A stretch of DNA of 18,733 bases. Source: a virus. Taxonomy: Duplodnaviria > Heunggongvirae > Uroviricota > Caudoviricetes. Shown piece after piece: positions 1 through 3,000 of this stretch (its first letter is position 1; every line of letters starts with the position of its first letter). The stretch covers positions 1 through 18,733 of the IMG/VR virus record IMGVR_UViG_2690316269_000016. One strand, given 5' to 3'. A program made the position numbers.

Positions 1-3000
1 ATGTTTTGCGAAGAAAAAGTAGCTCAAATGGCTGCATACCTACTTCTTAAGCGAGGTGGGCGCATGGCATATCTGAAATTGATGAAGTTGCTCTATCTGT
101 CTAACCGCCAGTCGATTTTGAAGCATGGCAGGATGATCGGCGAAGATAGCCTTTACTCTATGAAATTTGGACCAGTCATGTCGAATACGCTGAACTTGAT
201 TCGCGGTAAGGCTGAAGGCATTGGTGACTACTGGTACAACTTGATAGAGACGAACGGGCATAATGTATCGTTGCGTTCAGATCCGAGGGAAATGGATGCA
301 GACGAGGTCTTTGATGAATTGAGTCGTGCAGATATCCGGATTTTAGATGAAATCTATTCTCGGTATGGGCATATGAACCGATTTGATCTCGCAAATATGA
401 CGCATTTAGAAAGCGTTTGTCCAGAGTGGCACGATCCTGGCAATTCTCGTAAGCCTATAGACCTGAAAGAAATGCTGATCAGTGAGGGTAAAAGCGAGGA
501 TGAGGCTAATCGCATAATTGGCAAAATGGAAGAATCTCAGAAACTTAAGGAATTTTCTTTGCAATTATCATGACGGATTATCAGCCATACAGGAAAGGAA
601 CTGTGCTTGCCCCAACTGGGCCATGCAATCATCTTCATGTGATTTGTAATGATCCTGTTTATTACCCCGTTAACGATTGTTATTGTGTTTTAGTTGTTAA
701 TATTTCTAGTATCAAGGATGGTGTCCCCCACGATCCGTCTTGCGTCTTGAATTCTGGTGATCATCGCTTTATCAAGCATCCAAGTTATGTTGTTTACGCT
801 GAAGCTATAATTTGGCGAGTGGATAACATGGTTAGAAAGCAGCGATCGGGTGAGATTTCTGTTCATGATGATATGCCAGAAGCTACATTCAATAGAATTC
901 TGGACGGTTTTGATATCTCTGATGAAGTTACGCCAAAGAACCTTAAATTTAAAAATAAATATTGCGTATCATCTATTGATGATGAGTAAACAACAGGAAT
1001 TGTTTCGGTATAACTTCAGGAGTTTTCTATGGAAGATCAAAAAGCAACCAAGCCACAGGTTAAGTTCGACACAATGAAAGCATTCGCAGGTATGGGTGCT
1101 GCTGTTGAAGTTCTGATGAAGGCTGCTCCTAATGCGTTCACTCACGCTACTGTCTCTGGTAAAGAGCAGCAGGGTAAGCTTCGTCGTCGCAAAGCAGCAT
1201 GATCATAGCTGGTGCTTTTTGAAAACCCGCCTTTAGGCGGGTTTTTTATTTAGTGATGTTCTTTGCCCTTCTGTTTGCTTGTTCTGACCTGTTCCCACTC
1301 GATACGTCCTTCTTCTCGTCTTTTGTCTATGTATTCCGCAAGATCCTGAATATTGATGCAACGTTTTGCTTTTTGTGATGTGCCGATGCGATATGTTGGA
1401 ACGGGCAACTTACAAGCGTTTGCTTTTGCTTCTGCCGTGGCTGGACTCATGCCAAAGTACTTTTGGCTAACTGCTGAGAGTTCAATGTTAGGGGTATTGA
1501 ATTCAGCCATCAGTAAAAACAAGGTGTTCATAATTTTCTCCATCAAAACCGGCTGCACCCGGGAAAATCATAATTCTGTGCTGGTGGCAGGAATTAATTT
1601 CTGCCAGATAGCGGAAACATATTTTGCCTGATGACGGGCATCAGCCAGGGCGTTGTGCCGTTCGCCATCGAAAGGCATGTCCATTTTGGGGTCGAATCCG
1701 ATGGAACGCCCAAGCGTAACGATCGTGCGTACATCGTGGTCATTCCAGTATGCCCACGGGCAGATTTGTCCTGCTCGCTCATAAGCTCCACGTAAAATTA
1801 CGTTGTCGAAGGTGGCTCCGTTACCCCAGACTTTTAAATATTTCGTATTGTCTGCGTGCCGGTTAATGAAATGATTTAGTTCTGAGAGAGCATCGCTGAT
1901 CGACAAAGTATCATCAATACAGATTGCAGCTCGTGCTTCAGGGCTTTGTTTCAACCACCACAGGATGGTATCGCCGTCAGGTGTAGCTCCTTGCCCCATA
2001 GCACTTTCCAGGCTAACAACCGTATAGAATTCTTGTCCGATGTCTCCGGTTTCTGGAGTGAAGAACACCGCGCCAATGGAAACGATCGGTGCATCCTTAT
2101 TTTTCCCCATCGTCTCAAGGTCGATCATTAAGTTGTTCATCACTTCACCTCTTGTGATGGTTTTGCTGCAAAATACTCGATACCTTTATCCCAGATAGAT
2201 TTTATGGTCGACCACGTGACTGGCACTTTAATTTCAATACGTCCGCTCCCGTCACAGGTATCGCAATCATCATCGCCAAAGCATTCCAGGCAGCTTATAA
2301 ACGTAGTTTCTGAAAATTCACCGGATAGCGCCCCCTTAGCGCCGTTCTCGGCTGTTAGTCTCTTCGGCACCATAACCCAACCATCCGGAGTTACCGGAGA
2401 GTTGCCAGACAGTGCGTTCTGCAATCGTTCCAGCTTAACGTATTCCTGAACCCTGTTTCCGTCGCACGCCTGAAGCCATTGCACAGCCTTTTGCGCATCA
2501 GTGTGAAAGGCACAAGTGCGACCGTCATCAAATTGCATTTCGTAGAGGTCAGCAACCTGTTTAAACTGCGTTTGTGGCAACTTGTAAGCCTGGCTTGCAG
2601 GTACGGCACCATAGAGCATGGCAGCGCGGCAGGCGTTCCAGCCTTCATCAAAACCGACTATGCCATTATTTAAAGACGGACGAGCATCTGGCACCACCGG
2701 CACTGGCTTGGCTATATATAGCGGCTGAACATACCAGCCCTTTGATAACCAACTGTCAGCAATGTTTTTACTCCTGGTTATTGCCGGAATACCTAAGCCA
2801 TTGTCTGAATGCAGCCATGCCACCGGATCCTCTTCCAGCGATGCCAGAGCAATTTCATAAGCACGGCGCTCAACATTGTCTCGCACGTCCATGCTGCTGA
2901 TTCGTTCTTTGATTTCTTTAATCAGTTCTTTATCGGTAAATGTGGTCATTATGCTCCAGCCTCCGGTGCTTTTGGCATTACTGCCCAGTGAGTGATGTTG

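What the first reader, a model, noticed from the sequence alone, without database searches (positions are those of the whole stretch)
1..989. Panacea-domain antitoxin-like gene coupled to an unrecognised 139-aa ORF in the prophage cargo arm
The first ORF has the Panacea/DUF4065 signature. That domain is described as a promiscuous antitoxin module that pairs with many unrelated toxin families (PanA/PanT). Its stop overlaps the start of a 139-aa ORF (ATGA) whose His/Cys/Asp-rich sequence I cannot place in any toxin family I know. The pair sits outside the conserved phage operons, beyond the excisionase-like gene, and looks more AT-rich than the core, as expected for an acquired toxin-antitoxin or anti-phage module. 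The 139-aa protein is therefore a candidate new toxin or effector domain.
Basis: partly seen in the sequence, partly recalled or inferred. Interest (0 to 1): 0.75.

Follow-up and report, generated by a model that had tools for sequence, protein, structure and literature searches.

The report
Prophage PanA antitoxin with MazF-fold toxin
The two overlapping genes are a real toxin-antitoxin pair carried as swappable cargo at the end of an E. coli prophage, but the "unplaceable" 139-aa protein belongs to a toxin family with a MazF-like RNase fold that was described and experimentally validated in 2022, so it is an ordinary new member and not a new toxin domain.

The parts
1..573 (+). panA: complete 190-aa stand-alone Panacea (DUF4065) antitoxin gene with no extra N-terminal domain. 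It has a conserved TH..CPEW.DP.GSS.PI motif and a charged C-terminal tail (residues ~150-190).
   Evidence: PF13274 at 70.9 bits, E 2.2e-19. phrog_1281. RefSeq names it 'Panacea domain-containing protein' WP_000458584.1. 23-sequence alignment A4. The N-terminus MFCEEKVAQ matches the MIFSEQKVAQ start that Kurata et al. restored for the validated P. moraviensis PanA.
570..989 (+). panT: 139-aa toxin gene with a MazF/Kid/CcdB-type fold, a member of Kurata et al. cluster T6. Family-wide conserved residues are H21 (invariant) and L22, D55, C58, G63, H65, F67, S72, Y76, G113, S117 (>=90%).
570..573 (+). ATGA stop/start overlap (translational coupling of panA and panT).
   Evidence: Sequence. The same ATGA overlap, or a TAATG overlap, occurs in 17 of the 26 loci with both genes (L001-L014, L016, L026, L028). 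The other 9 have gaps of 2-20 nt.
1..1015 (+). Extent within the window of the swappable panAT cargo cassette. Its promoter region and the dusA attachment site lie upstream of window position 1.
   Evidence: Related E. coli dusA prophages without panAT are homologous only from window position 1016/1019 onward. They carry a different 177-aa gene in the slot. GC is 41.1% against 50.2%.
1029..1202 (+). orf57: a co-directional 57-aa phage gene (phrog_2741) downstream of panT. It is a neighbour that probably shares the transcript and is not part of the conserved module.
   Evidence: phrog_2741, E 8e-36. Present without panAT in about 360 E. coli genomes and in phage mEp460. Absent downstream of panAT in all 26 other loci.
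1221..1246 (.). Strong hairpin with T and A tracts on either side, a bidirectional intrinsic terminator between the panA-panT-orf57 unit and the convergent xis/early-left genes.
   Evidence: Terminator scan on L001 7221-7246, equal to window 1221-1246: 11-bp stem with 6 GC pairs. Sub-threshold Rfam hits all centre on this hairpin.

Best explanation
This is a type II PanA-PanT toxin-antitoxin module of the class Kurata et al. (2022) numbered T6.

panT (570-989) encodes a small toxin with a MazF/Kid-type SH3-like barrel. It most likely acts as an endoribonuclease that shuts down translation. panA (1-573) encodes a stand-alone Panacea-domain antitoxin that binds the toxin directly and keeps it inactive. 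The ATGA overlap couples their translation so that the antitoxin is made first and in step with the toxin.

The pair is a ~1-kb AT-rich cargo cassette. It lies in the variable slot between the dusA attachment site (attL) and the excisionase gene of a ~37-kb temperate E. coli phage. It is transcribed towards the early-left operon and is insulated from it by a bidirectional terminator. It is therefore probably expressed in the lysogen from its own promoter.

Its likely biological role is abortive-infection-type defence against other phages and/or stabilisation of the prophage.

Shown here: domain, fold, family membership, conserved two-gene linkage, purifying selection and cassette behaviour.
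Taken from the literature for a homologue: toxicity, neutralisation, complex formation and selective inhibition of translation.
Inferred: that this copy is toxic, that the chemistry is RNA cleavage, and the role in the lysogen.
For: - Panacea domain above the Pfam threshold.
- Homologue L007 (55% identity, E 3e-49) is WP_101821906.1, which is listed in T6 of Dataset S1 together with Pantoea septica LMG 5345 (my L008). The A|T order and the gene overlaps (-1 and -4) are the same ones I measured.
- T6 representative P. moraviensis PanT is toxic in E. coli, is neutralised by and co-purifies with its PanA, and specifically inhibits 35S-Met incorporation (PMC8832971).
- Pseudomonas homologues are 40% identical to the window protein and share the MPG-N/T-I/V-L/F N-terminus that the paper's cloning primers encode.
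- A PanA homologue lies immediately upstream in 24 of 24 loci with upstream DNA, down to 30% identity and across three proteobacterial classes. PanA and PanT identities co-vary (Spearman 0.86, n=22).
- pN/pS is about 0.11-0.14 for both genes.
- Cassette behaviour and the alternative cargo in the same slot.
- The terminator.
Against: - Neither toxicity nor neutralisation has been tested for this E. coli copy.
- Kurata et al. found 8 predicted PanTs non-toxic in E. coli. These included two enterobacterial phage-borne 'mRNase' pairs (E. coli MOD1, Salmonella phage Emek) and one 'MazF'-type PanT.
- No sequence-level link to PemK/MazF was obtained: Pfam gave 1 of 98 members at E 0.11, the profile against PDB sequences found nothing, and hhalign against a 5-sequence MazF alignment gave probability 0.35%.
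- The canonical MazF catalytic Arg could not be identified. The protein is acidic (pI 5.6).
- No PADLOC defence model matches.
- The P. moraviensis toxin sequence itself was not available for a direct alignment.
- A defence or stabilisation role is pure inference from location.
Confidence: 0.75

Rival explanations
1. The 139-aa protein is a CcdB-like poison of DNA gyrase rather than an RNase. It has the same fold but a different target, and PanA plays the CcdA role.
Confidence: 0.06
2. The pair is not a functioning toxin-antitoxin system in E. coli. The 139-aa protein would be a non-toxic phage protein with a MazF-like fold, such as an RNA- or DNA-binding regulator or an inactivated toxin. PanA would then have another job, for example sensing or neutralising host or rival-phage toxins.
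For: Eight predicted PanTs, including two from enterobacterial phages, were non-toxic in E. coli. Ernits et al. 2023 propose a sensor role for Panacea. The MazF catalytic Arg is not evident. This copy has not been tested.
Against: A member of the same family (T6) is a validated toxin. There is strict two-gene linkage over deep divergence. An invariant His and near-invariant D/C/H/S residues persist across about 100 diverse representatives, which suggests an enzyme under selection. Purifying selection acts on both genes.
Confidence: 0.14
3. One reading: the 139-aa protein is a new toxin or effector domain unrelated to known toxin families.
For: No Pfam, NCBIfam, PADLOC or PDB-sequence hit. PHROG 19071 has unknown function.
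Against: The fold is unambiguously MazF/Kid/CcdB. The family is already catalogued as PanT cluster T6 with an HHpred assignment to EndoA/PemK/MazF and a validated member.
Confidence: 0.03

Closest known systems
PanAT cluster T6 of Kurata et al. 2022 (PNAS 119:e2102212119), validated pair Pseudomonas moraviensis PanA WP_083354365.1 / PanT WP_083201923.1
   Same: - Stand-alone Panacea antitoxin with no N-terminal domain.
- Antitoxin-first order with overlapping or abutting genes.
- ~130-140-aa toxin with no CDD or Pfam hit but a MazF/PemK-like fold.
- Listed T6 members (WP_101821906.1; Pantoea septica LMG 5345) are 55-56% identical to the window toxin.
- The PanA N-terminus has the same MxF-x-E-x-KVAQ motif.
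   Different: - This copy sits on a dusA-integrating E. coli prophage, whereas the P. moraviensis pair is flagged 'NotPhage'.
- It is about 40% identical to Pseudomonas homologues.
- Its accessions (WP_000458584.1, WP_014640052.1) are not in the part of Dataset S1 that is held.
- It has not been tested experimentally.
MazF / Kid(PemK) / EndoA endoribonuclease toxins (Pfam PF02452, CcdB/MazF superfamily)
   Different: - No detectable sequence similarity.
- The partner is Panacea, not MazE/Kis/PemI.
- The conserved set is H21/D55/C58/H65 instead of the Arg/Thr pair.
- There are three C-terminal helices rather than one.
- The pI is acidic.
CcdB (F-plasmid gyrase poison)
   Different: Weaker structural match than MazF. 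The family's validated member inhibits translation. There is no CcdA-type partner.
SocAB of Caulobacter crescentus (the founding Panacea/DUF4065 system)
   Same: The antitoxin carries the same Panacea domain.
   Different: The NCBIfam SocA_antitoxin equivalog scores 14.4 bits against a cut-off of 190. The SocB toxin is unrelated and SocA acts as a ClpXP adaptor (type VI). T6 PanA forms a stable complex with its toxin, which is type II behaviour.

Membership tests
PanAT (Panacea-antitoxin TA systems, Kurata et al. 2022) | The antitoxin candidate carries the Panacea/DUF4065 domain (PF13274) above threshold. | tested here: met
   70.9 bits against a gathering cut-off of 25.7, E 2.2e-19, residues 27-137.
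PanAT (Panacea-antitoxin TA systems, Kurata et al. 2022) | [quoted passage not shown] | tested here: met
   4-nt overlap in the window. A PanA homologue lies directly upstream of the toxin homologue in 24 of 24 loci with upstream DNA, from Alpha-, Beta- and Gammaproteobacteria, with spacing from -4 to about +20 nt.
PanAT (Panacea-antitoxin TA systems, Kurata et al. 2022) | Not part of a longer conserved operon (more than three genes). | tested here: met
   The downstream orf57 is absent from all other panAT loci and occurs without panAT in about 360 E. coli genomes. Flanks differ between taxa.
PanAT (Panacea-antitoxin TA systems, Kurata et al. 2022) | PanT is toxic, and the toxicity is neutralised by the cognate PanA through complex formation. 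| not testable with these tools
   Shown only for the P. moraviensis T6 pair in PMC8832971. It requires expression and pull-down experiments for this copy.
PanT cluster T6 (Kurata Dataset S1) | Significant sequence homology to proteins listed in T6. | tested here: met
   The L007 toxin is WP_101821906.1, which is listed in T6. It is 55% identical to the window protein at E 3e-49. L008 is from Pantoea septica LMG 5345, also listed, with the same -4 overlap.
PanT cluster T6 (Kurata Dataset S1) | Direct homology to the experimentally validated member WP_083201923.1. | tested here: inconclusive
The cloning primers give MPGNIL... and ...IRQNNF. Pseudomonas homologues of my family start MPG(N/T/P)(I/V)(L/F)QKGTLL, end ...RF(L/I)KQH.., and are 40% identical to the window protein. 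This is consistent but indirect.
MazF/PemK (Pfam PF02452) | Match to the PemK_toxin profile. | tested here: not met
   No hit for the window protein. 1 of 98 family representatives hit at E 0.11. hhalign against a 5-sequence MazF/Kid/EndoA/ChpBK alignment gave probability 0.35%. That alignment was thin, so this is a weak negative.
MazF/PemK (Pfam PF02452) | MazF/Kid/CcdB SH3-like barrel fold. | tested here: met
MazF/PemK (Pfam PF02452) | Catalytic Arg (E. coli MazF R29) and Thr/Ser (T52) in the active site. | tested here: inconclusive
   No residue-level structural alignment was available. By manual matching of strands, S46/S47 fall at the T52 position and invariant H21 next to the R29 position, which is itself Leu (A2). 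This is an inference only.
MazF/PemK (Pfam PF02452) | Sequence-specific endoribonuclease activity. | not testable with these tools
   Needs in vitro or in vivo RNA cleavage assays. The homologue is known only to inhibit translation.
SocAB type VI TA | The antitoxin matches the SocA equivalog and is paired with a SocB toxin. | tested here: not met
   NF047745 scores 14.4 bits against a cut-off of 190. The partner has a MazF fold and is not SocB.
Known anti-phage defence systems (PADLOC-DB v2) | Match to a defence-system protein model. | tested here: not met
   No hits for PanA, PanT or orf57 at E<=1.

The most novel reading that the evidence does not exclude
T6 PanT toxins would be a mechanistically distinct branch of the MazF fold. 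They would use a His-centred site (invariant H21, with near-invariant D55, C58 and H65), possibly metal-dependent, instead of the canonical Arg/Thr pair. In E. coli this prophage copy would work as a lysogen-expressed abortive-infection module in a dedicated attL-proximal defence slot of dusA phages, with Panacea acting as the sensor of the invading phage.
Probability: 0.2. Interest if true: 0.5.

Novelty: new member of a known kind. Interest (0 to 1): 0.25.

Why it matters
The finding gives a name and a testable function to a gene that RefSeq calls "hypothetical protein", and that it annotates with a start codon that is probably wrong. The gene is present in about 4% of complete E. coli genomes and in at least two sequenced phages.

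It also marks the attL-proximal slot of dusA-integrating prophages as a place where cargo is exchanged, and so as a place to look for further lysogen-expressed modules.

It does not open a new class. The Panacea-MazF-like pairing, its toxicity and its direct neutralisation were published in 2022. What remains open for the whole T6 family is the RNA target, the catalytic residues and the trigger that releases the toxin.

Tried and rejected
1. Sequence-only placement of the 139-aa protein found nothing meaningful. This covered Pfam, NCBIfam, PADLOC, phmmer, and a 98-sequence profile against PDB sequences. The ICMT and DapC hits are short and below threshold, so I treat them as chance.
2. hhalign of the family profile against a hand-typed 5-sequence MazF/Kid/EndoA/ChpBK alignment gave probability 0.35%.
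3. I spent the last large protein search trying to deepen that MazF alignment. It returned only near-identical NdoA proteins and added no diversity, so I did not rerun the comparison.
4. afdb50 fold search: the library was not available.
The single-sequence model is unusable (pLDDT 42), so I make no statement about how the PanA C-terminal tail contacts the toxin.
6. No PDB coordinates are exposed, so I could not measure whether H21, D55, C58 and H65 cluster in space.
7. Rfam scan of 1-1600: only sub-threshold hits, all on the terminator hairpin. There is no convincing operator-like palindrome upstream of panA, and the one sigma-70-like site is no more than chance would give.
8. The NetFlax 2023 supplements held no entry for the accessions I searched. 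Literature searches found no study of this E. coli pair.
9. I considered SocAB-type (type VI) action and a CcdB-type gyrase poison and rejected both (see the membership tests and rival explanations).

Full report
**1. The observation**

The window opens with an ATG-initiated ORF at 1..573 (190 aa). Its TGA stop overlaps the ATG of a second ORF at 570..989 (139 aa) in the tetranucleotide ATGA. ORF1 matches Pfam PF13274 (SocA_Panacea) at 70.9 bits, against a gathering cut-off of 25.7 (E 2.2e-19, residues 27-137). ORF2 has no significant hit in Pfam, NCBIfam or PADLOC. It belongs only to PHROG 19071, which has unknown function.

The next gene on the opposite strand (1250-1558) is a PrtN/excisionase-family gene, followed by a 3'-5' exonuclease and other early-left genes. 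The toxin gene is 38.6% GC, in the lowest 0.8% of 420-nt windows. panA is 43.1% and the rest of the window 50.2%. The description is therefore correct at the stated coordinates.

**2. Completeness and gene starts**

An identical copy lies in 205 of 5426 complete E. coli genomes and in phages SKA5 (100% identity) and Lys8385Vzw (99.4%). In E. coli WP4-S18-ESBL-09 (L001), panA is preceded by 250 bp of non-coding DNA and then by a 105-bp 5' fragment of dusA. The intact dusA, followed directly by a tyrosine integrase gene, lies at the other end of a ~37-kb prophage. In the excised phage the order is integrase, dusA fragment, panA.

ORF1 is therefore not the tail of a larger gene. A GAGG lies 8 nt upstream of its ATG. 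All 22 aligned homologues begin with the same MF/MY-x-E-x-K-x-AQ motif. This is also the N-terminus (MIFSEQKVAQ) that Kurata et al. restored for their validated P. moraviensis PanA.

For the second gene, RefSeq/PGAP uses GTG 603 (128 aa, WP_014640052.1). Residues 1-11 (M1, P6, G10, T11) are conserved in 48 homologues, so the overlapping ATG at 570 is the better call.

**3. What the 139-aa protein is**

An AlphaFold2 model built on a 48-sequence alignment is confident (mean pLDDT 92.7, pTM 0.86).
- In Foldseek against the PDB, the top 50 hits are all MazF (probability 0.96-1.00, target-normalised TM 0.54-0.66).
- In the viral BFVD library, the annotated hits are 'PemK-like protein' or 'Endoribonuclease'.

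Sequence methods do not see this relationship. phmmer and a 98-sequence profile against PDB sequences find nothing. Only 1 of 98 family members touches PF02452, at E 0.11. hhalign against a small MazF alignment fails.

**4. It is a catalogued family**

Dataset S1 of Kurata et al. 2022 (PMC8832971) lists a PanT cluster T6. Its HHpred annotation is 'EndoA/PemK/MazF-family RNAses', its gene order is A|T, and its members include Proteus, Pluralibacter, Pantoea septica LMG 5345, 'Yersiniaceae bacterium 2016Iso4', Photorhabdus, Halomonas and Pseudomonas.

My scan of reference genomes for relatives of the 139-aa protein returned, among 26 loci, Pantoea septica LMG 5345 (L008, 56% identity) and Chimaeribacter coloradensis 2016-Iso4 (L007, 55% identity, E 3e-49). 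The L007 protein is WP_101821906.1, which is exactly the accession listed in T6. The gene overlaps I measured (-1 in L007, -4 in L008) are those tabulated in the paper.

For the T6 representative from P. moraviensis, the paper shows toxicity in E. coli, rescue by the cognate PanA, co-purification of the two proteins, and selective inhibition of 35S-methionine incorporation. I could not obtain that sequence. Its cloning primers encode MPGNIL.... The Pseudomonas members of my family begin MPG(N/T/P)(I/V)(L/F)QKGTLL and are 40% identical to the window protein (E 3e-29).

The family is large: 2719 clusters at 50% identity match at E<=1e-3, and 937 at E<=1e-10.

**5. Linkage and selection**

A PanA homologue lies immediately upstream of the toxin homologue in all 24 loci that retain upstream DNA. 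These come from Alpha-, Beta- and Gammaproteobacteria, with identities down to about 30%. ATGA or TAATG overlaps occur in most gammaproteobacterial copies, and gaps of 2-20 nt elsewhere. PanA and PanT identities co-vary (Spearman 0.86, n=22), although shared ancestry alone would give some of this.

Against the Kosakonia and Pluralibacter copies, non-synonymous differences are 0.085-0.11 per site while synonymous sites are saturated at 0.76-0.81. The downstream orf57 is not part of the module. It is absent from every other panAT locus and is present without panAT elsewhere.

**6. Cargo behaviour**

About 360 further E. coli genomes match the query only from position 1016/1019 onward, which covers orf57, the terminator and xis. 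In three that I examined (O157:H7 strain 4276, SMN197SH3, ECE170), the slot between the dusA fragment and orf57 holds a single unrelated 177-aa gene (WP_000956557.1 or WP_062881958.1) with no Pfam or NCBIfam hit. The panAT cassette (window 1 to ~1015) is therefore one of at least two alternative occupants of an attL-proximal slot.

A strong hairpin at 1221-1246, flanked by A and T runs, separates the panA-panT-orf57 unit from the convergent early-left genes. This is the layout expected of a gene set expressed independently of the lytic programme. The expression claim itself is an inference. The only sigma-70-like site upstream (in L001, 127-155 nt before the ATG) is no better than chance.

**7. 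Mechanism**

The best-supported reading has three parts.
- PanT is a MazF-fold translation inhibitor, most probably an endoribonuclease.
- PanA, a stand-alone Panacea protein (Kurata class 'noNTD'), neutralises it by direct binding, as shown for the P. moraviensis pair. Ernits et al. 2023 showed direct neutralisation by the Panacea domain for stand-alone PanAs paired with other toxins.
- The ATGA overlap couples synthesis of the two proteins.

Across 98 diverse representatives the invariant residue is H21. L22, D55, C58, G63, H65, F67, S72, Y76, G113 and S117 are at least 90% conserved. I matched the predicted strands by eye to E. coli MazF. On that mapping S46/S47 fall where MazF has T52, and H21 lies next to the position of the catalytic R29, which here is Leu. 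The active-site region is probably the same but the chemistry may differ. This mapping is an inference and not a computed alignment.

Three cautions apply. This copy is untested. Eight other predicted PanTs, two of them from enterobacterial phages, were non-toxic in E. coli. The protein is acidic (pI 5.6).

**8. Comparison and verdict**

The pair works like, and by the tests available is a member of, the PanAT T6 class. At the superfamily level the toxin shares the MazF/Kid/CcdB fold but fails the PF02452 sequence test and has a different partner. I therefore do not file it as a PemK-family member in the Pfam sense. It is not SocAB (NF047745 scores 14.4 bits against a cut-off of 190) and it matches no PADLOC defence model.

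Novelty: a new, untested, prophage-borne member of a known kind. The first reader's central hope of a new toxin domain is not supported.

The open points are the target and catalytic residues of T6 toxins, the trigger sensed by Panacea, and whether the attL-proximal slot of dusA phages is a defence hotspot. They concern the family in general, and this locus does not make them unusually tractable.

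Noticed in passing
window 570-605: RefSeq/PGAP annotates the toxin gene from GTG 603 (128 aa, WP_014640052.1). That call has a good AGGA 8 nt upstream, but it removes 11 residues (MTDYQPYRKGT) that are conserved across 48 homologues. The overlapping ATG 570 is the better start. Anyone cloning from the RefSeq coordinates would truncate strand 1 of the fold.
   Followed up: yes
L030 2781-3314 (E. 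coli O157:H7 strain 4276); same position in L031 and L032: In about 360 E. coli genomes the panAT slot between the dusA fragment and orf57 is occupied by a single unrelated 177-aa gene (WP_000956557.1 or WP_062881958.1). It has no Pfam or NCBIfam hit. It is an uncharacterised alternative cargo at the same spot and a possible defence or moron gene.
   Followed up: partly
window 14394-15446 (+): A 350-aa N6/N4 DNA methylase (PF01555, E 1.6e-42) lies between the Q-type antiterminator gene (13035-13787) and the holin gene (15427-15858). In the otherwise near-identical prophage of strain WP4-S18-ESBL-09 this position holds only a 243-bp hypothetical gene. It is therefore a second variable cargo slot, the position where Stx genes sit in Stx phages.
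   Followed up: partly
window 1029-1202 (+) and 1221-1246: orf57 (phrog_2741, unknown function) is conserved at >98% DNA identity in several hundred E. coli prophages and in phage mEp460, whatever cargo precedes it. It is followed by a very strong bidirectional terminator shared with the convergent xis gene.
   Followed up: partly
L028 4001-4273 (Bathymodiolus platifrons methanotrophic symbiont): The toxin homologue matches in two pieces, and its reading frame is open only from 4045 to a stop at 4176, while the upstream PanA (3432-3989) looks intact. This may be toxin decay with the antitoxin retained.
   Followed up: no
protein collection, cluster 4: The 190-aa PanA and the 139-aa PanT were returned as members of one and the same 90%-identity cluster (541 members, with lengths of 53-232 aa). 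This is probably a clustering artefact caused by a mis-called ORF that bridges the two overlapping genes. Cluster-based counts for either protein should not be trusted.
   Followed up: no
window 570-989 (protein level): The toxin is acidic (pI 5.6). From my own recollection, not checked here, characterised MazF and Kid toxins are basic. Invariant H21 and near-invariant D55, C58 and H65 stand where MazF uses Arg/Thr. This hints at different catalytic chemistry within the same fold.
   Followed up: partly
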